From positions 1,421,204 through 1,485,203 of the forward strand of contig NZ_JAPNKE010000002.1 in assembly GCF_026626665.1 (NCBI RefSeq): DNA of 64,000 nt, given 5' to 3'. How positions within the stretch are numbered: position 1 is the stretch's first letter; each line of letters starts with the position of its first letter. Below the pieces are notes generated by a model that searched no databases, was not told where the DNA came from, and was given only the letters and a program-made list of their open reading frames with translations. Made by a program: the position numbers and the translations under genes. Below, piece by piece: positions 17,296 to 63,376 of this stretch. Origin of the DNA: Nannocystis pusilla. GTDB taxonomy: Bacteria > Myxococcota_A > Polyangia > Nannocystales > Nannocystaceae.

Positions 17296-17358
17296 GCGGG
17301 CGAGGGCGACGCTCCCCGCGTGCCCCGAGCGGACGCGCGGCCCGGCGGTCGATGGCCG

Positions 17359-17435
17359 CGAGGACATGTCCGTGAGGATATGCTCGGAGGACATGCACTC
17401 GAGAGCCTGTTCATGAGGACATGCTCTCGAGTGCC
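17359..17435. repeat. Cluster of four GAGGACATGYNC units (GGACATGTCC-core family)
   Basis: Intergenic, between mqnD and the convergent ABC ATPase gene. Confidence 0.6.
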
Positions 17436-23591: not shown

Positions 23592-24619
23592 TCATGGTGG
23601 GCGGTAGGCGCCGAGCCAGGCGCGGGCGTTGCCGCCGAGCAAGCGGGAGACGGCGGGCTCGGGGAGCGCGAGGCCGAAATAGACGCCGGGGGTGAGCGCG
23701 CCGATCCGGGCGGCGTGGCGCCAGAACTCGAACCGCTCGCGCTCGAGCAGGCCGAGGTTGGCGGCGAGCTGCAGGTCCCAGGCGCGCGCGGCGTCGAGGT
23801 CGCCGGGGGCCCCGCGCGCGGTGACGAGGTCGGAGCCGAACAGGAACCGCTCGGGCTGGATCTCGATGAGGGCGCGCAGCCGGTCCCGATCCTCCTCGAT
23901 GGCGGTGAAGCCGTCGACGCCGGGCAGGCCGGCGCCGTGGCTGGTGTCGACGCGCAGCCGCGGGAACTCGCGCAGCAGGCCGGCGAGGCGATCGAGGTCG
24001 GTGCGACTGCCGCACAGGTGGGCGCAGACCAGCTCGAGGCGCGGGTGGGCCCGCAGCACGCGGGCGAGCTCGTCGCGGTAGCGCACGGTGTTGACGTGGA
24101 CGAGCACGGGCACCGAGCGCTGCTCGAGCCACTCGAACAGGGAGGCGTGGGCCGGATCGTCGAGCGGGCGGGCGTGCAGCTTCTGGTGGCCGAAGTACAG
24201 CTTGACGCCGCGAGCCCCCGCTGAAACCACCGCTCGAGCGCGGGGATGTCGACCTCGGCCGGCTCGACGGCGATGAACGGGAACAGGCGCGCGCGGTGGG
24301 CCGCGGTGGCGGCGAGCAGGGCGTCGTTGGCCTCGCGCCAGCCGTGCATGCGCGCATCGGGGCCGGGAGCGAGGCCGAGCGCGGGATCGAGGTGCGGCGA
24401 GGCGATCACGACGGCGGCGGCGATGGCGTTGCGATCGAGCGCGGCGAGCAGGTCGTCGACCGCGCCGCCGACGAGGTGGACGTGGACGTCGACGCGGTCG
24501 CGCGCGGCAGGTTCGTCGTCGATGCCGGTGGTGCCGGTCGGCGTCGGGACGCCGCAGGCGAGCGCCAGGCCGGCGAGCAGGAGGGCCGCGAGGCGCCCCG
24601 CAGAGGCTTCAGCACTCAC
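23592..24619 (-). CDS. Secreted TIM-barrel amidohydrolase (amidohydrolase_2-like), apparent 1-nt frameshift near 24205-24215
   Basis: N-terminal signal peptide and VDVHVHL metal-binding motif in the frame of ORF 23270-24619. The C-terminal 2/3 (GVKLYFGHQ...) are in the frame of ORF 23592-24230. The switch is at a GGGGG run. Confidence 0.5.
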
Positions 24620-25190
24620 ACTCGTCCTCGCCTTCGTAGTTGCGGATCTCGACGCTCAGGCGATACGGGTACTCGGCGGTCGCGGTGTCGCTGTGGACGC
24701 GGACCAGGAGGGTGCCGGCATAGTCGTCGCCGTATCCACCGAGCGCGAGCACGCCGCCGTCGGCCGTCTGCGCGGTCAACGGCTCGTGCGTGTCGGCGCG
24801 GTAGACCTCGATGGTCATGGCGTGCTCGGGACCGGGCGCGAGCACCGGCTCCCCGCACGCGGCTCCGCACAGGCCGGCGTCATCCACCAGACCGCGCACG
24901 TAGAGGTAGTGGACGGCATAACCGAGGTCAGCGACGTCGAAGCGGTACCAGTCATCCTCGCCAGGGCAGAGGTAAGCGTCGGTGACCTCGTGGTAGGCGG
25001 ACCACTCGCTGACGCCGCTCCAGGCGACGTCGGTCGGATCGTCGGGCTCGTCGTTGGGCTCCCAGGCGTCGTTGAGCGGGCAGGCGGCGGCGCCGGTGGT
25101 CGAGGCGGCGGTGGAGGTGCCGGGGTCGTCGCCGTCCCGCGACGCGAGGTCGCAGGCGGCGAGCGCGGAGAGGATGGCGACATGTCGCAA
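24609..25190 (-). CDS. Lipoprotein with C-terminal PPC (pre-peptidase C-terminal)-like domain
   Basis: TTG at 25190 gives MRHVAILSALAAC (lipobox). Alternative ATGs lie upstream at 25238/25256. The C-terminus EPNDEP...DDWYRF...LYV...TLLVRV is a PPC pattern. Confidence 0.45.
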   Translation of the reverse strand: MRHVAILSALAACDLASRDGDDPGTSTAASTTGAAACPLNDAWEPNDEPDDPTDVAWSGVSEWSAYHEVTDAYLCPGEDDWYRFDVADLGYAVHYLYVRGLVDDAGLCGAACGEPVLAPGPEHAMTIEVYRADTHEPLTAQTADGGVLALGGYGDDYAGTLLVRVHSDTATAEYPYRLSVEIRNYEGEDECEC

Positions 25191-25389
25191 GAGACAGGTC
25201 GAGCGCGCGGCGGCCGAGGTCGGGACTGGCGTCGTCATCGGTGATCCGGAGGTCACGCAAACGTGGGCCCGCGATCGCGGCCGGCAATCGAGTCGGGTCG
25301 CGCAGACCGAGGCGAGGGGACAGTCGCAGATCCGGCGACGAAGGGACCGAGCGAGCCGCGAACACCGGCGCAGGCGCCGCCCCGCGGGG

Positions 25390-25750
25390 CGCGGAGACGG
25401 GATGTCCCAAAGGCCAGGCAGAGAGCCGGCGCGCCGCGCTTCCCGGATGTCCGAAGGGGCAGGCGATCCACGCGGACGACGAGGGGCGGATCTGCGAGAT
25501 CGAGATGTCCGGAGAGACAGGCGGCCGCGGCCGGAGCGCGCGCGAGGATGTCCGGAGAGACAGGGGGCCGCGGACGGAGCGCGCGCGGGATGTTCGGAGA
25601 GACAGGCGGCCGCGGCCGGAGTGCGCGCGAGATGTCCGGAGAGACAGGCGGACGCGGCCGGAGCGCGCGAGATGTCCGGAGAGACAGGCGGCCGCGGCCG
25701 GAGCGCGCGCGGGATGTCCGGAGAGACAGGCCGGTGGGGGTGACTGCGAG
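25390..25750. repeat. Tandem array of ~8 units of ~43 nt (GATGTCCGGAGAGACAGGCGGCCGCGGCCGGAGCGCGCGCGAG)
   Basis: Direct periodicity read at 25502-25735, with degenerate copies from 25395. There are no unique spacers, so this is not a CRISPR array. The unit is related to the GGACATGTCC family. Confidence 0.8.
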
Positions 25751-25856
25751 GAAGGGCGCGAGGAGCGTCGGCCCGCGCCGTCTCGCTCGGAGCCAGGAAC
25801 GGCGCGAGGGGCGTCGGCCGAGCGAGGCCCCTCGCGGGCCGCGGCCGGGCCGTCGC

Positions 25857-27425
<1,569 letters not shown>

Positions 27426-27609
27426 CGTTCGACTCCTGCGCGAGAGGCCTTAGCAGCCGGCGTGCCAGGCGCCGTGGCGGGCCCGCCGCTCAGGCGTCAC
27501 GCGGGTGAACGGCGGACGACGCGTTCGCGACCCGAGCGGGCATGCCTCAAAGTGAGGCAGGTGGATCGTTACGATGCACCTGCAGCGAACGGCGCGGCGC
27601 GGGCCGAGG

Positions 27610-29160
27610 TCAGGCGCGGATTTTGAGGGTCTTGATCTTGCGCAGGAGGGTGGCGCGGCCGATGCCCATGGCCCGGGCGGCGCCGCTGCGGTTGCCGTCG
27701 TGGGCGGCCAGCACGGCCTCGATGTAGAGCTTCTCCATCTCGTTCCACGACAGCCGGGCGAGGTCCGCCCCGCCGCGACCGGCCTTGCGGCCCGCGGCCG
27801 GCAGCTCGCGCGGGTCGGCGGGCAACGGTAGATCGGCGACCTCGATGGCGTCGCCGACGCTGAGGACGACCGCGCCCTCGATGCAGTTCTCGAGCTCGCG
27901 GATGTTGCCGGGCCAGCTGTGCGCGTGCAGCCGCGCGAGCGCGGGCGGGGAGAAGCGCACGACGGGCTTGTTGTGGCGCTGGGCGAAGCCGGCCAGGAAG
28001 TGGTAGGCGAGCTGCTCGAGGTCCTCGGGGCCGCGCTCGCGCAGCGGCGGCATGGCCAGCGAGAGCACGCGCAGGCGGTAGTAGAGGTCCTCGCGGAAGC
28101 GCTGGCGGGCGACCATGTCCTCGAGGTTGCGGTTGGTGGCGGCGAGGATCCGGACGTCGACCTTGAGGGTCTTGCGCCCGCCGACCCGCTCGAACTCGCG
28201 GTCCTGCAGGACGCGCAGCAGCTTGCTCTGGAGCGTGAGCGGGACCTCGCCGAGCTCGTCGAGGAAGACGGTGCCGCCGTCGGCGGCCTCGAACTTGCCG
28301 ACGCTGCGCTGGTCGGCCCCGGTGTACGCGCCGCGCTCGTGGCCGAAGAGCTCGTTTTCGATCAAGGTGGCCGGCAGCGAGGCGCAGTCGACGGCGACGA
28401 ACGGCCGCCCGGCGCGCGGGCTGTTGTAGTGGATCGCCCGCGCGATCAGCCCCTTGCCGGTGCCGGTCTCGCCGGTGATGAGGACGGTCGCGTCGGTGCC
28501 GGCCGCCCGTGTCACGAGATCGTAGACGCGTCTCATCCGCGCGCCGCCGCCGACCACGCCGTTGAAGCGGTAGCGCAGCGGTCCGCCGGTGGGGGCCCGC
28601 AGCTGGCCGTAAAGACTGGTGCTCTCGACCAGCATGGCGACCTGGCTGGCGAGCGCGCGCAGCAAGGCCTCGTCGTCGTCGTCGAAGGCGGCGCCCTTCT
28701 TGTTGAGCAGCTGGAGGACGCCGAGGATCTCGCCGGCGCGATCGAGGACCGGGACGCACAGCATCGAGCGCGTGGCGTAGTTGGTGGCGCGATCGATGGC
28801 GCCGTAAAACCGCGGGTCGCCCTCGGTGTGCGAGAGGTTGATGGCCTCGCCGGTGCGCGCGACGTGGCCGGCGATGCCCTGGCCGACCTTGAGACGGATC
28901 TCGCGCAGCTCCGGCAAGTGCGCGGCCTTGCTGAACAGCTCGCCGCGGGCCCGGTCGACCAGGTAGAAGGTGCCGCGGTCGGCGTCCATGGCCTTCGTGA
29001 CGGTGTCGATGACCTGCGCCAGCAAGGCGTCGAGGTCGACCTCGCGGCGCACCAGCTCGCCGAGCGCGAACAGCACGCTGTCGCGATCGACCCGCGTGCG
29101 CCGCGGCGTCGCCTCCCCGATGCTCGGCTTCGCCGCTCTCTTGCGCGCTGCTGGCTCCAT
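27610..29160 (-). CDS. Sigma-54-dependent transcriptional activator with N-terminal GAF domain (Fis-type HTH)
   Basis: GAF segment, then AAA+ sigma-54 interaction domain (GETGTGKG, GAFTGA-like ESELFGHERGAYTGA), then a C-terminal HTH. Confidence 0.85.
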   Translation of the reverse strand: MEPAARKRAAKPSIGEATPRRTRVDRDSVLFALGELVRREVDLDALLAQVIDTVTKAMDADRGTFYLVDRARGELFSKAAHLPELREIRLKVGQGIAGHVARTGEAINLSHTEGDPRFYGAIDRATNYATRSMLCVPVLDRAGEILGVLQLLNKKGAAFDDDDEALLRALASQVAMLVESTSLYGQLRAPTGGPLRYRFNGVVGGGARMRRVYDLVTRAAGTDATVLITGETGTGKGLIARAIHYNSPRAGRPFVAVDCASLPATLIENELFGHERGAYTGADQRSVGKFEAADGGTVFLDELGEVPLTLQSKLLRVLQDREFERVGGRKTLKVDVRILAATNRNLEDMVARQRFREDLYYRLRVLSLAMPPLRERGPEDLEQLAYHFLAGFAQRHNKPVVRFSPPALARLHAHSWPGNIRELENCIEGAVVLSVGDAIEVADLPLPADPRELPAAGRKAGRGGADLARLSWNEMEKLYIEAVLAAHDGNRSGAARAMGIGRATLLRKIKTLKIRA

Positions 29161-38395: not shown

Positions 38396-38419
38396 GCCGC
38401 GCCCGTGCGTGAGAGGCGT

Positions 38420-38445
38420 GACCGCCAGGACATGTCCTGGCGGTC
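38420..38445. repeat. Perfect 26-bp palindrome GACCGCCAGGACATGTCCTGGCGGTC
   Basis: Lies 25 nt after the PBP stop, in the gap between convergent genes. GGACATGTCC core. Confidence 0.85.
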
Positions 38446-38654
38446 ATGCTGCTTTCGGGGCGCGCGCCGAGCTCGAACGGCGGCCCTGAAGCGCCGCGGT
38501 CGACGGTCGCTCCGCGCACGCGAGCGCGGTCGTGGATGCGCACCCGCCGGCGAGGCGAGCGCGACCCGAGCGCCCACACGGCAGCGCGGGATGGTGAAGA
38601 GCCGGACACTCGAGCTCGCTCGTGGACGTCCCGCGGCGCGTCTCTCAATCAACA

Positions 38655-38715
38655 GGGCCGTTCGGACATGTCCGAACGGCCCTGCGTGAGCGGGCATGTC
38701 CATCGGGACATGCCG
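38655..38715. repeat. Perfect 28-bp palindrome GGGCCGTTCGGACATGTCCGAACGGCCC followed by the imperfect palindrome CGGGCATGTCCATCGGGACATGCCG
   Basis: Read directly; the element ends ~7 nt before the ACAD stop. Confidence 0.85.
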
Positions 38716-44712: not shown

Positions 44713-44990
44713 GTGCGGCGCGATGCGTGACTTCGCTGCGGAGGAGCCTCGGGCGAGTACCGACGCTCACGCGCCGGTTCGGTTCGAACTTCCGGACAGG
44801 TGATGCGCCACGAGCCGCGTTTGCCCGCCGATCCCTGTTCCGGACAGGCAGGGCGCGGGACAGGTGATGCGCCACGAGCCGCGTTTTGTCCGCCGATCCC
44901 TGTTCCGGGACAGGCAAGGCGCGGCCGTTCACGAGCGTTCGAGTCGGTCTGAACTTCGGGACAGGTGATGCGCCTCGCCGGTCAGCCCCA
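44713..44990. repeat. Tandem array of ~65-nt units (GGACAGGTGATGCGCCACGAGCCGCGTTTGCCCGCCGATCCCTGTTCCGGACAGGCAGGGCGCG), two full and two partial copies
   Basis: Direct repeat read at 44792-44985. The units contain a GAACTTCGGGACAGG module that is also present at 57618. Confidence 0.75.
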
Positions 44991-45767: not shown

Positions 45768-45804
45768 GCGAGATCAGCCGGACGGACGTCGGCGCCGAGC
45801 TGGC

Positions 45805-45826
45805 CGCGAGGACATGTCCTGGCGGC
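45805..45826. repeat. Near-perfect palindrome CCGCGAGGACATGTCCTGGCGG
   Basis: Intergenic, between the hypothetical gene and the MBL hydrolase gene. Confidence 0.6.
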
Positions 45827-45834
45827 CAGTCGGC

Positions 45835-51009: not shown

Positions 51010-52017
51010 TCACTGCGGCAGGCAGGCGCTCGGGGCGGCGGCGCCGGCGAAGGTCGGGCCCATGTCGCGGTAGGTGTGGGCGCGCCAGAAGTCGCGCGGG
51101 TCCTCGGCGAGCTGGAGGGTGCGGTCGTCGCCGCTGCCGCTGACGAGGATCGCGGTCTCGAGTCCGTCGTGGCGCAGCGGGAACGACAGGGCCAGGCGAT
51201 CGCCGCGCTGGCGGTAGGTCAGGGTCTCGGTGGTCCACTCGTCGTAGTCGCCGCGGTGGTGCCAGCCGACGCCGCGGCCGTCGATCGCCTGGGGCTGGAA
51301 TTGGTAGATCGAGAAGCCCATGCCGCCGGTGGCGTAACGGACCTCCTCGCCCCACAGGCGCCCGCCGATCCGCTCGGCGGCGGCGAGGGGCGCGGGGGTA
51401 CCTGGCTCTCGGGGCAGGTCGGTGGCGAGGGGCTCGGGCGCACCTGGCTCTCGGGGCAGGTCGGCGGCGGCGGCGAGGGCACCCGTCACCCGCGACGAGT
51501 CGCCGGCGAGGGACCCGGGGGTGGAGGCTCCTGGCTTTTGGGGCAGGTCGCCGGCGGGGTCGAAGCAGGGCGCGCCGGTGGCGGCCGCCGGGGCCTTGAA
51601 GTAGCGGGCGCCGCCGGGCTCGCGCGGGTCGTCGTCGAGGACCAGCCAGGTGCGACCGCCCTGCTCCTCGAGGCGATAGGGGACGCGGCGCCGCTCGCCG
51701 GTCTTGCGGAAGGTGAGCTCGAGGTGGCCGCCTTCGGCGCGGTAGTCGAAGCTGTGGGTGTTGGTGAGGCCGACCTTGCCGTAGCGGTAGAGGCCGAAGC
51801 CGCCCTCGTGGAAGAAGTAGAAGCGCATGCGGTCGCCCTCGGCGAGGGCGTCCCAGCGGTGCCAGACGCCCAGCAGGTCGGGGTCGACGGCGTCGGCGTC
51901 GCAGGTGTCCTCGGGGACAGGCTCGCCGGCGTCGGGCGCCCAGGCGGCGATGAACGGGGCCGACAGCGCGAGGACCGCGAGGAGGTAGACGCTCGAGAGG
52001 CAGAAGGGGCGCCGCAT
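51010..52017 (-). CDS. Secreted hypothetical protein with internal DLPREPG tandem repeat
   Basis: ATG at 52017 gives MRRPFCLSSVYLLAVLALSAPFIAAWA (signal peptide). The coding tandem repeat at ~51395-51490 encodes DLPREPGAPEPLATDLPREPGTPAPLA. Confidence 0.45.
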   Translation of the reverse strand: MRRPFCLSSVYLLAVLALSAPFIAAWAPDAGEPVPEDTCDADAVDPDLLGVWHRWDALAEGDRMRFYFFHEGGFGLYRYGKVGLTNTHSFDYRAEGGHLELTFRKTGERRRVPYRLEEQGGRTWLVLDDDPREPGGARYFKAPAAATGAPCFDPAGDLPQKPGASTPGSLAGDSSRVTGALAAAADLPREPGAPEPLATDLPREPGTPAPLAAAERIGGRLWGEEVRYATGGMGFSIYQFQPQAIDGRGVGWHHRGDYDEWTTETLTYRQRGDRLALSFPLRHDGLETAILVSGSGDDRTLQLAEDPRDFWRAHTYRDMGPTFAGAAAPSACLPQ

Positions 52018-52928: not shown

Positions 52929-53010
52929 GCGAGGCGCGCGGACGGGACGCGATCGGGGCCGAGGCGCGGCGGTCGGTTCAGGCTCAGGCAGACGCGACGG
53001 GTGTCTTTGA

Positions 53011-53046
53011 GGACAGGGCCCATGGGACATGCCCGATGGGTCAGGC
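53011..53046. repeat. GGACAGGGCCCATGGGACATGCCCGATGGGTCAGG, a GGACATG-family element
   Basis: Intergenic, between the convergent maf and lipoprotein genes. Confidence 0.55.
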
Positions 53047-57617: not shown

Positions 57618-57729
57618 GAACTTCGGGACATGGCCCGGAAGACCTGTACGAAAGAGCAGCCGCACGGACAGAGGCGCCGCCGGGGAGGTGTCGTCGGGGA
57701 CATGTCCCGGGAGACCTGTCGGAAGGTGC
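57618..57729. repeat. Two GGACATG-family units (GAACTTCGGGACATGGCCCGGAAGACCTGTACG and GGGGACATGTCCCGGGAGACCTGTCGGAAGG)
   Basis: Intergenic, between the KAS stop (57730) and the KS-N-like start (57584). Confidence 0.65.

Positions 57730-60404: not shown

Positions 60405-63376
<2,972 letters not shown>

What the first reader, a model, noticed from the sequence alone, without database searches (positions are those of the whole stretch)
25390..25750. Tandem array of about eight 43-nt units downstream of the flotillin gene and upstream of a PPC lipoprotein gene
GATGTCCGGAGAGACAGGCGGCCGCGGCCGGAGCGCGCGCGAG repeats head-to-tail with few substitutions (T/C at the GATGTYC position; GCGAG/GCGGG ends). 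There are no unique spacers, so it is not a CRISPR array. The unit begins with a GGACATG-like half-site (ATGTCCGG on one strand, CCGGACAT on the other) and is related to the dispersed family. It could be a minisatellite, an iterated protein-binding array or an expansion of the mobile element.
Basis: seen in the sequence. Interest (0 to 1): 0.6.

Follow-up and report, generated by a model that had tools for sequence, protein, structure and literature searches.

The report
Lineage-specific 42-nt minisatellite after flotillin gene
This is a real but young tandem amplification, found in one Nannocystis lineage only, of one copy of a short palindromic word that litters gene ends across this bacterial family; it is most likely a by-product of replication slippage, not a dedicated device.

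Summary
The repeat is real but smaller than described. It has five full units (43, 42, 42, 40 and 42 nt) plus the first 20 nt of a sixth, at 25505-25733. Two further degenerate "head" motifs with unrelated spacers lie at 25402 and 25447.

Each unit is an 18-20 nt head, ATGTCCGGAGAGACAGG(CGG), joined to a 22-nt GC-rich linker. The head is a one-mismatch version of TGTCC-N4-GGACA.

The window comes from a Nannocystis species. Six orthologous loci keep the same gene order but have no array. They carry only 0-4 single heads after the flotillin gene. The closest relative lacks about 420 nt that include the array.

The head belongs to a palindromic word family found in all Nannocystaceae loci sampled. 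Its spacing is strict. It is about 30-fold enriched in spacers between convergent genes, at background level in divergent (promoter) spacers, and clustered just after stop codons. It is also about 14-fold over chance inside genes.

Tandem reiteration of "motif plus flank" recurs at two other loci. The array units do not fold better than shuffled sequence.

I read the array as a minisatellite amplified from a REP/TRIT-like gene-end element. It is not a CRISPR array, and a promoter-related protein-binding array is unlikely. Interest in the array is low to moderate. The dispersed family is the more interesting object.

The parts
25505..25733 (.). Homogeneous tandem array of five full units (25505-25547, 25548-25589, 25590-25631, 25632-25671, 25672-25713) plus the 20-nt head of a sixth (25714-25733). 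All heads point the same way. In the sense of the flanking minus-strand genes each unit reads CCTGTCTCTCCGGACAT + CCCGCGCGCGCTCCGGCCGCGGCCG.
   Evidence: TRF period 42, 5.5 copies, 91% matches. Unit split. The repeat finder families D1 and D2. Alignment A2.
25402..25464 (.). Two older, degenerate head-only copies: ATGTCCCAAAGGCCAGG at 25402 and ATGTCCGAAGGGGCAGG at 25447. Their spacers are unrelated to the array linker. The closest relative L006 has a single head in this stretch, which aligns with the 25448-25467 copy in the gap-tolerant alignment.
   Evidence: (D3, 72% identity).
25873..25890 (-). Perfect family member CTGTCC-GAGG-GGACAG inside the last codons of flotillin. Its core TGTCCGAGGGGACA (25874-25887) ends 17 nt before the stop codon. 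The arms are conserved and the loop varies in four Nannocystis orthologues.
25803..25836 (-). GC-rich 14-bp-stem hairpin that begins 21 nt after the flotillin stop codon, ahead of the array in transcript sense. It has no U-tract and is absent from L006.
   Evidence: the repeat finder I2. Fold -40.7 kcal/mol for 25786-25856..
25746..25819 (.). Separate two-copy tandem duplication (28-nt matching block, 46-nt period, 89% identity) next to the array.
   Evidence: the repeat finder D4.
25257..25397 (-). Conserved promoter-proximal block of the downstream lipoprotein gene. It is 91.5% identical to L006 and includes the CCACGTTTGC box shared with L004, L006 and L010. The array lies upstream of it and outside it.
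25181..25198 (-). Head-like copy (sense strand CCTGTCTCTTGCGACATG) inside the signal-peptide coding part of the lipoprotein gene. It is conserved in L004 and L006.
25857..27425 (-). SPFH/flotillin gene. The array lies 124 nt downstream of its stop codon.
   Evidence: Homologues named flotillin or SPFH, top identities 92% and 89% to Nannocystis..
24609..25256 (-). The start codon is uncertain: GTG at 25256, ATG at 25238 (the start that corresponds to the L006 orthologue) or TTG near 25195.
   Evidence: No Pfam hit.
27452..27467 (-). Sigma-54 promoter TGGCACGCCGGCTGCT in front of flotillin. This is context only and shows where the neighbouring activator most likely acts.
   Evidence: Only match scoring at least 10 of 12 in the window. 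Conserved in seven orthologous loci. Activator domains.

Best explanation
The array is a young minisatellite specific to this lineage. One copy of a short palindromic gene-end element, a one-mismatch variant of TGTCC-N4-GGACA, was reiterated head-to-tail about five times together with 22 nt of adjoining GC-rich DNA. The amplification happened in the unconstrained part of the spacer between the flotillin stop codon and the promoter block of the next gene. Slipped-strand or template-switch replication, or unequal recombination, at hairpin-prone DNA is the inferred mechanism. The element belongs to a palindromic word family found in all Nannocystaceae loci sampled. That family sits mainly just after stop codons and between convergent genes, so it behaves like REP or TRIT-type 3'-end elements. 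The array itself probably has no function of its own. Any effect would be the family's effect multiplied: a run of weak hairpins or factor-binding sites in the 3' region of the sigma-54-driven flotillin transcript, buffering read-through into the lipoprotein gene. The anatomy, the absence from relatives and the family's distribution are shown. The duplication mechanism and any RNA-level or factor-binding effect are inferred.
For: Each unit carries 1-2 private substitutions or indels, a star-like pattern of about 9% mismatch, as expected for one burst of amplification followed by drift.

Gene order (EBP, flotillin, then lipoprotein and amidohydrolase or not, then Exo_endo_phos, then trypsin) is kept in L004, L005, L006, L008, L010 and L011. 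None of these loci has the array. Their post-flotillin spacers hold 0-4 single heads. Against L006, whose flotillin is 96% identical outside one indel, the window has about 420 extra nt containing the array.

Scans for the exact 20-mer head found no multi-copy locus in 185,579 species genomes, the JGI metagenomes or IMG/VR.

The family has a strict geometry: TGTCC-N4-GGACA occurs 66 times and GGACA-N0-TGTCC 38 times, against 1-12 at other spacings. Half-site 7-mers occur at 11.1 per kb in convergent spacers, 2.0 in tandem spacers, 0.34 in divergent spacers and 0.63 in genes. Sites peak at +8 to +80 and at -26 to -23 relative to stop codons. The family is present in a distant Nannocystaceae MAG and was not seen in Haliangium.

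Motif-plus-flank units are tandemly reiterated at two other loci: window 44794-44924 (64 nt x 2) and L007 (50 nt x 2, with the identical head). The same lineage also has a 66-nt in-frame duplication inside flotillin.

Di Nocera et al. 2013 (PMC3733652) describe the same behaviour for REPs: location between unidirectional and convergent ORFs, and clusters made of singletons reiterated in tandem with flanking DNA.
Against: No reads or sister strains were available, so neither copy-number polymorphism nor the assembly could be checked. The family lacks the GTAG/CGTC tag, and no RAYT gene was seen. It is also about 14-fold over-represented inside genes, which is unusual for REPs. The 42-bp period equals four helical turns, which would also suit a phased protein-binding array. 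The flanking positions of the half-sites are conserved in sequence but do not covary, which hints at a sequence-reading factor that the array could titrate. No transcript data exist to show that the array is even transcribed past the strong hairpin at 25803-25836.
Confidence: 0.6

Rival explanations
1. The array is an adaptive tandem 3'-end module. Six to eight copies of the family hairpin or site act together as a reinforced terminator, insulator or mRNA-stabilising block. This block would sit between the strongly inducible sigma-54-dependent flotillin gene and the independently promoted lipoprotein gene.
For: The family peaks just after stop codons and in convergent spacers. Every relative with a spacer here has at least one head after flotillin, including the distant MAG L013. 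On the transcribed (minus) strand each head is predicted to form a 5-bp hairpin with one G-U pair. Flotillin has a conserved sigma-54 promoter.
Against: Array units fold no better than shuffles (z -0.19 and +1.47), whereas true convergent-spacer members reach z -4.5 and -8.6. No U-tracts are present. The closest relative manages with one head and a 200-nt spacer. One of the ten full-length arms in the five full units carries an uncompensated change (unit 3).
Confidence: 0.17
2. The array is a phased DNA-binding array. An unidentified dimeric protein reads CMTGTCC-N4-GGACAKG on double-stranded DNA. The 42-bp (four-turn) array would nucleate a nucleoprotein complex that regulates the lipoprotein gene or local topology, in the way gyrase or IHF act at E. 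coli BIMEs.
For: The spacing is strict at N4 and N0. Positions -1 and -2 of each arm are conserved (A/C, then C) without covariation between arms: 32 Watson-Crick pairs against 29.8 expected. Loops are unconstrained, with 38 different loops among 59 sites. There is no strand bias relative to genes. The period of 40-43 bp is close to four helical turns.
Against: The family is at chance level in divergent promoter spacers (2 half-sites in 5,961 nt). The array is absent from relatives that keep the same downstream gene and its conserved promoter block. It lies 250-480 nt upstream of that gene's start. It is not upstream of the sigma-54 promoter, so it cannot serve as that promoter's UAS. Array heads are the weaker one-mismatch variant.
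Confidence: 0.13
3. The array is an assembly artefact: one or two real units inflated or mis-joined by the assembler.
For: A 1-nt deletion frameshift in the neighbouring amidohydrolase gene shows that the sequence may contain errors. The 40- and 43-nt units could be indel errors.
Against: The whole array is only 229 nt, so single reads can span it. Every unit has its own substitutions, which collapse or expansion artefacts do not produce. The flanks are unique.
Confidence: 0.04
4. The array is a CRISPR array, a plasmid-type iteron set, or a CsrB-like protein-sponge small RNA.
For: The units are regularly spaced and contain palindromes. A GGA motif sits next to each small hairpin on the minus strand.
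Against: There are no unique spacers. No cas, rep or transposase domains occur among the neighbours scanned. Rfam gives no hit even at E<=10. The array is not conserved in any relative. Its folding is no better than shuffles.
Confidence: 0.02

Closest known systems
REP elements and their tandemly reiterated clusters (Di Nocera et al. 2013, PMC3733652; E. coli BIMEs, from my own knowledge)
   Same: Both are short palindromic repeats at high density. Both lie mostly between unidirectional and convergent ORFs and downstream of coding regions. Some copies lie inside ORFs. Clusters form by reiterating a singleton in tandem together with flanking DNA. Copy number differs between related genomes.
   Different: This family has no GTAG or CGTC terminal tag and no RAYT gene in view. 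The core is only 14-18 nt with a 5-7 bp stem. All heads in the array share one orientation, whereas BIMEs alternate. The family is about 14-fold over chance inside genes. Loop sequences are essentially free, whereas REP copies resemble each other throughout.
TRIT, the sequence-conserved palindromic terminator-like motif of Mycobacterium (Gardner et al. 2011, PMC3152330)
   Same: Both occur in high-GC organisms that lack canonical U-tract terminators. Both are palindromic motifs conserved in sequence as well as structure. Both are bidirectional and tightly associated with gene termini, including positions just inside the coding end. Both are restricted to one lineage. For TRIT, the sequence conservation prompted the idea of a dedicated binding factor.
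   Different: The sequence is different, and Rfam found nothing here. TRIT has 147 copies per genome, whereas this family would run to thousands if the sampled density holds. Tandem 42-nt arrays are not part of the TRIT description. Termination activity is untested here.
MIRU-type VNTR loci of Mycobacterium tuberculosis (from my own knowledge: 40-100 bp direct tandem repeats in spacers between co-directional genes)
   Same: The unit size class (42 nt) is the same. Both are head-to-tail direct repeats in a spacer between two genes of the same orientation. Units differ by point changes and small indels. Presence or absence and copy number vary between close relatives.
   Different: There is no sequence relationship. 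MIRU polymorphism between strains is documented, whereas only between-species absence could be shown here. MIRUs are not built from a genome-wide palindromic word.
DNA uptake sequences (DUS/USS) as inverted pairs downstream of genes (Kingsford et al. 2007, cited in PMC3152330; otherwise from my own knowledge) and cyanobacterial HIP1 (from my own knowledge)
   Same: Each is a short word over-represented across the genome, inside genes in all frames as well as outside them. Inverted pairs form hairpins at gene ends. Conservation acts on the word and not on base pairing.
   Different: No link to competence or methylation is known or was tested for Nannocystis. The spacing here is rigid (N4 or N0), unlike DUS pairs.

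Membership tests
CRISPR array | Repeats separated by unique spacers of similar length | tested here: not met
   Units abut directly. The 22-nt 'linker' is itself repeated at more than 90% identity.
CRISPR array | cas genes or a leader nearby | tested here: not met
   Pfam on the genes between 21164 and 29160 gives a sigma-54 activator, Exo_endo_phos and trypsin, with no family hit for the other three. No Cas domains were found.
REP, GTAG/CGTC super-families (PMC3733652) | Terminal GTAG or CGTC tetranucleotide next to the palindrome | tested here: not met
   The arm profile of 59 sites shows conserved R-C-M before TGTCC on both arms and no GTAG/CGTC tag.
REP, GTAG/CGTC super-families (PMC3733652) | Preferential location between unidirectional and convergent ORFs, downstream of coding regions | tested here: met
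   Half-sites occur at 11.1 per kb in convergent, 2.0 in tandem and 0.34 in divergent spacers. Positions peak at +8 to +80 after stop codons.
REP, GTAG/CGTC super-families (PMC3733652) | Association with a RAYT (Y1 transposase) gene flanked by the repeats | not testable with these tools
   No transposase domain occurs among the 20 window proteins next to motif clusters.
BIME (E. coli REP cluster) | Successive REPs in alternating orientation separated by defined linkers | tested here: not met
   All six heads of the array, and the two degenerate ones, point the same way.
Bacterial minisatellite / VNTR (MIRU-like) | Head-to-tail direct repeats with a unit of about 10-100 bp in non-coding DNA | tested here: met
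   The period is 40-43 nt with 5.5 copies. Unit lengths break every reading frame, so the array is non-coding.
Bacterial minisatellite / VNTR (MIRU-like) | Copy number varies between strains | not testable with these tools
   No second strain of this species is in the collections: the best flotillin match is 92% and the exact protein is not on record. Between species, the array is absent from six orthologous loci.
TRIT-like sequence-specific gene-end hairpin | Palindromic motif conserved in sequence, clustered at gene termini and bidirectional | tested here: met
   Strong members fold with z -4.5 and -8.6. This holds for the dispersed family. The array heads are weak members.
TRIT-like sequence-specific gene-end hairpin | Match to the Rfam TRIT model or demonstrated termination | tested here: not met
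   cmscan of 24000-27500 at E<=10 gave no hits. Termination activity cannot be tested here.
Canonical intrinsic terminator | GC-rich hairpin followed by a U-tract | tested here: not met
   No terminator-like sites in 24500-26500. No T-runs follow the heads.
Sigma-54 upstream activating sequence for the neighbouring EBP | Repeated activator sites located upstream of a GG-N10-GC promoter | tested here: not met
   The only good sigma-54 promoter is at 27452-27467, in front of flotillin. The array lies 1.7 kb downstream of it, and no such promoter precedes the lipoprotein gene.

The most novel reading that the evidence does not exclude
The TGTCC-N4-GGACA / GGACATGTCC word may be an undescribed sequence-specific gene-end signal shared across Nannocystaceae. 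A dedicated protein, acting on DNA or RNA, would read it. Selection or a biased repair or recombination drive would keep it at strict spacing even inside coding sequences. On this reading the 42-nt array is a natural multimer of that signal, which could titrate or concentrate the factor next to the sigma-54-controlled flotillin gene.
Probability: 0.3. Interest if true: 0.55.

Novelty: new member of a known kind. Interest (0 to 1): 0.3.

Why it matters
The array on its own matters little. It would be a convenient VNTR marker for typing strains of this Nannocystis lineage. It also illustrates that hairpin-prone gene-end elements seed tandem duplications.

The context it exposes is more useful. 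Myxobacteria of this family appear to lack canonical terminators, yet they carry a rigidly spaced palindromic word. That word is about 30-fold enriched between convergent genes and about 14-fold over chance inside genes. I found no description of it in the literature searches I ran.

If a factor reads this word, it would bear on how high-GC bacteria without U-tract terminators mark transcript ends or relieve topological stress between converging genes. The array would then be a ready-made multimeric probe for finding that factor.

Tried and rejected
- **Rfam:** a permissive scan of 24000-27500 found nothing.
- **Promoter and terminator scans:** the sigma-70 promoter and hairpin-plus-T terminator scans of 24500-26500 found nothing.
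- **RNA folding of the whole spacer:** z was -1.3 on the minus strand and -1.9 on the plus strand, which is not distinctive. Single and double units gave z from -1.3 to +1.5. I therefore rejected a structured-RNA reading of the array.
- **Source strain:** the exact flotillin protein is not on record, so strain-level copy number could not be tested.
- **Collection scans with the 20-mer head:** there were three single hits in genome contigs, two of them intragenic in Nannocystis and one a chance hit in an Anaerolineales MAG. There was one single hit in metagenomes and none in viral contigs. I first took the exact 20-mer matches at unrelated loci as evidence of mobility. I rejected this because the family may have about 100,000 members across Nannocystis genomes, so roughly one chance match is expected.
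- **Copies of the full unit:** BLAST of the spacer against the rest of the window and all loci found no second copy of head plus linker.
- **Strand bias:** asymmetric (CC...TG) sites show no orientation bias relative to genes outside the array.
- **Pairing beyond the 5-bp core:** there is no covariation between arms.
- **Sigma-54 promoter before the lipoprotein gene:** the conserved CCACGTTTGC box fits GG-N10-GC spacing only in the window and not in L004 or L010, so I rejected it.
- **GGACATG as start-codon context:** a few genes do start at that ATG, but in the lipoprotein gene it is out of frame, so I rejected this.
- **In-frame insertion of intragenic copies (RPE-like):** the L003 copy lies in what reads as an ordinary part of a ferredoxin-reductase-type protein. 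The idea is unsupported and I did not pursue it.
- **Pfam for the 'PPC' and flotillin proteins:** no hits at E<=10.
- **Literature:** searches for Nannocystis or myxobacterial REP-like repeats found nothing relevant.

Full report
**Observation.** The sequence at 25380-25760 does contain a head-to-tail repeat. Tandem Repeats Finder reports 25504..25731, period 42, 5.5 copies, 91% matches and score 384. This is by far the strongest array in the 64-kb window.

Splitting at ATGTYC gives five complete units starting at 25505, 25548, 25590, 25632 and 25672, of 43, 42, 42, 40 and 42 nt. A sixth copy at 25714-25733 retains only the first 20 nt. The 20-nt head ATGTCCGGAGAGACAGGCGG occurs six times here with 0-1 mismatch, against 0.01 expected in shuffles.

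Two more copies of the head alone lie at 25402 and 25447. Their spacers (45 and 58 nt) do not align with the array's linker.

Each unit carries one or two private substitutions or a small indel. Unit lengths break all reading frames, so the long ORFs that cross the array are artefacts of high GC content.

**Anatomy of a unit.** The head is an imperfect inverted repeat, TGTCC-GGAG-AGACA, one mismatch away from TGTCC-N4-GGACA. The 22-nt linker contains the 12-nt palindrome CGGCCGCGGCCG, which is broken without compensation in two of the five units.

On the minus strand, which is the sense strand of both flanking genes, each head is predicted to form a 5-bp hairpin with one G-U pair. However, a single unit folds no better than shuffled sequence (z -0.19 on the minus strand, +1.47 on the plus strand). 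The whole spacer is also unremarkable (z -1.3 and -1.9). Rfam finds nothing even at E<=10. No sigma-70-like promoter or U-tract terminator is detected.

**Context.** The window has 71.7% GC. Its flotillin/SPFH protein (25857..27425, minus strand) is 92% identical to that of Nannocystis pusilla and 89% identical to that of N. bainbridge, so the source is a Nannocystis species.

Reading along the minus strand, the order is as follows:
- a GAF-AAA+-HTH sigma-54 activator gene (27610..29160);
- a near-consensus sigma-54 promoter, TGGCACGCCGGCTGCT, at 27452-27467. It is the only site in the window scoring at least 10 of 12 and is conserved in all seven orthologous loci;
- the flotillin gene;
- a 14-bp-stem GC hairpin beginning 21 nt after the stop codon (25803-25836);
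- a two-copy 46-nt duplication (25746-25819);
- the array;
- the two degenerate heads;
- a 140-nt block, 91.5% identical to the closest relative, that must hold the promoter of the next gene (25257-25397);
- a 215-aa lipobox protein (24609..25256).

The 'PPC' label for this last protein could not be confirmed with Pfam.

**Comparison with relatives.** I fetched six orthologous loci: N. pusilla L004, N. bainbridge L005, and the metagenomic contigs L006, L008, L010 and L011. All keep the activator-flotillin pair and the downstream Exo_endo_phos and trypsin genes. The lipoprotein-amidohydrolase pair is present in L004, L006 and L010 and absent from the others.

None of these loci has a tandem array. 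The spacer after flotillin holds one head in L006, three in L004, two in L010, several weak ones in L005, and none in the very short convergent spacers of L008 and L011.

L006 is the closest relative: its flotillin is 96% identical outside one indel, and its amidohydrolase is 95-97% identical. A gap-tolerant alignment against it shows that window 25468-25840 and 25398-25445, about 420 nt including the array, have no counterpart.

Scans for the head 20-mer (two degenerate positions allowed) returned only single copies. These covered 185,579 species-representative genomes, the JGI metagenome contigs and IMG/VR. The array is therefore specific to this lineage, as far as public data reach. No second strain of the species is available, so true copy-number polymorphism is untested.

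**The dispersed family.** The head belongs to a real and unusual family. In the window, TGTCC-N4-GGACA and GGACATGTCC each occur seven times exactly, against fewer than one expected.

Pooled over the window and the fetched Nannocystaceae loci (about 170 kb), and allowing one mismatch, the spacing is strict. There are 66 sites at N4, against 1-12 at any other spacing from 0 to 12. There are 38 head-to-head sites at N0, against 0-8 elsewhere. The two registers often combine into 28-nt elements, TGnCC-N4-GGACATGTCC-N4-GGnCA. Some of these are perfect long palindromes that fold with z -8.6.

Loops are almost free, with 38 different tetranucleotides among 59 sites. By contrast, the two positions outside each arm are conserved (C, then A or C) but do not covary between arms: 32 Watson-Crick combinations against 29.8 expected. 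Asymmetric sites show no orientation bias relative to genes.

**Where the family sits.** Using a GC3-based gene map, I counted the 7-mer half-sites GGACAKG and CMTGTCC per kb of sequence.

| Region | Window only | Pooled with the other loci |
|---|---|---|
| Convergent spacers | 7.8 | 11.1 |
| Tandem spacers | 1.5 | 2.0 |
| Divergent spacers | 0.5 | 0.34 |
| Genes | 0.69 | 0.63 |

My hand estimate from base composition puts chance at about 0.33 per kb. The pooled counts include orthologous loci and clustered sites, so the nominal P values overstate significance. The trend is still plain within the window: six of eight convergent spacers carry two or more half-sites, and only one of eight divergent spacers carries any.

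Site centres cluster at +8 to +80 nt after stop codons, with a second group at -26 to -23, just inside coding ends. That second group is partly made up of flotillin orthologues.

The family is also present inside genes in all three frames. There are 17 sites in the window's coding sequence, against 1.2 +/- 1.2 after codon shuffling.

A distant Nannocystaceae MAG, whose flotillin is 60% identical, has 10 sites in 21.7 kb against 0.6 expected. They again lie at the flotillin 3' end and in a convergent spacer. An 11-kb stretch of Haliangium ochraceum has none.

Genes next to the motif clusters are ordinary housekeeping genes, and no transposase is among them.

**Interpretation.** The family's location matches published accounts of two kinds of element.
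- **REPs:** they lie mostly between unidirectional and convergent ORFs and downstream of coding regions, with some copies inside ORFs. Their clusters are built by reiterating singletons in tandem with flanking DNA (PMC3733652).
- **TRIT motif of Mycobacterium:** it is conserved in both sequence and structure, is bidirectional, sits at gene termini including just inside the stop codon, and prompted the suggestion of a dedicated binding factor (PMC3152330).

The location argues against an operator or promoter role.

The array itself looks like an accident of this family. Its head is a weak one-mismatch member. It sits in the only unconstrained part of the spacer, and relatives do without it.

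'Motif plus flank' has also been tandemly duplicated at two other places in the small sample: 64 nt x 2 at window 44794-44924 in a convergent spacer, and 50 nt x 2 in L007 with the identical head. In addition, this lineage has a 66-nt in-frame duplication inside flotillin.

Slipped-strand or template-switch replication at hairpin-prone DNA is the simplest mechanism. This step is inferred, not shown.

**Rivals.** There are four.
- **Adaptive multi-hairpin insulator** between the inducible sigma-54 flotillin gene and the next gene. This is possible, but it is weakened by the units' ordinary folding energies and by the closest relative's single head.
- **Phased DNA-binding array.** The strict spacing, the non-covarying conserved flanks and the four-turn period fit this reading. 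The family's avoidance of promoter spacers and the array's non-conservation count against a regulatory role for this particular array. It cannot be the UAS of the sigma-54 promoter, which lies 1.7 kb upstream.
- **Assembly artefact.** This is unlikely, because the array is only 229 nt and every unit is distinguishable. However, a 1-nt frameshift in the adjacent amidohydrolase gene shows that the sequence is not error-proof.
- **CRISPR array, iterons or a sponge RNA.** These are rejected on the grounds given under the rival explanations.

**Novelty and verdict.** The array is a new instance of a known kind: a bacterial intergenic minisatellite amplified from a REP-like element. It is comparable in form to MIRU loci. 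It is not a member of the GTAG/CGTC REP super-families (no tag) or of BIMEs (no alternating orientation).

The dispersed word family is the more interesting object. It has strict spacing, is concentrated at gene ends and is also enriched inside genes. My literature searches found no description of it. What reads it, and whether it acts on DNA or RNA, remains open.

I score the finding 0.3 for interest. The most novel reading still allowed is a dedicated gene-end signal with the array as a natural multimer. I give that reading a probability of about 0.3.

Noticed in passing
window 27452-27467 (-), with 27610-29160 (-) and 25857-27425 (-): A near-consensus sigma-54 promoter (TGGCACGCCGGCTGCT) sits about 25 nt upstream of the flotillin start codon. 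It lies directly downstream of a GAF-AAA+-HTH_8 activator gene. CTGGCACG-N4-(C/G)TGCT is conserved in all seven orthologous Nannocystaceae loci. The layout resembles PspF-pspA and suggests that flotillin is a stress-induced sigma-54 target.
   Followed up: partly
window-wide, e.g. 2451-2469, 17353-17421, 38419-38710, 45801-45828, 53002-53034, 57689-57707, 61058-61076; also L003, L007, L013: A palindromic word family with strict spacing (TGTCC-N4-GGACA and GGACATGTCC, often fused into 28-nt elements). It is about 30-fold enriched in convergent spacers and at chance level in divergent spacers. It is about 14-fold over codon-shuffle expectation inside genes. It is shared with a distant Nannocystaceae MAG and was not seen in 11 kb of Haliangium.
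   Followed up: partly
window 26422-26583: A 66-nt in-frame tandem repeat inside the flotillin gene. The window has 2.5 copies and encodes 22 more residues than the closest relative P0001/L006.
   Followed up: partly
window about 24216 (gene 23592-24619, minus strand): The Amidohydro_2-type gene downstream of the lipoprotein gene is split by a single-base deletion (CAGCGCGGGG becomes CAGCGGGGG) relative to L006. This is either a pseudogene or a sequencing error.
   Followed up: partly
window 44794-44924 (partial third copy near 44950): A 64-nt unit duplicated in tandem (94% identity) in the convergent spacer after a MiaB-like radical-SAM gene. Each unit carries GGACAGG and CCTGTTCCGGACAGG motifs of the same family. 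This is a second case of motif-plus-flank amplification.
   Followed up: partly
window 51378-51480 (and a further copy near 51530): Another 42-nt-period repeat (2.5 copies). It lies inside a minus-strand lipoprotein-like ORF (51010-52017) and encodes DLPREPG-type linker repeats. Its DNA contains CCTGGCTCTCGGGGCAGG, which resembles the family head.
   Followed up: no
window 25265-25285 (minus strand); L004, L006, L010 at equivalent positions: A conserved CCACGTTTGC(A/G) box lies about 30 nt upstream of the lipoprotein gene start in four lineages. It is part of a CACG-TTTG-CGTG palindrome in the window. It is probably the gene's promoter or operator. It does not keep sigma-54 spacing across species.
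   Followed up: partly
L007 3075-3173: In a metagenomic Nannocystaceae-like contig, a 50-nt segment spanning the stop codon of an upstream gene and the start of the next gene is duplicated in tandem. By eye the two genes read as an ABC-transporter ATPase and permease. The ATG of the exact 20-nt head ATGTCCGGAGAGACAGGCGG appears to serve as the second gene's start codon (M-S-G-E-T-G-G).
   Followed up: no
L005 and L008/L011 versus window, L004, L006, L010: The lipoprotein-amidohydrolase gene pair is present in four lineages and absent from three. Where it is absent, flotillin faces the Exo_endo_phos gene directly. The pair is therefore an indel module at the same spot where the repeats accumulate.
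   Followed up: no
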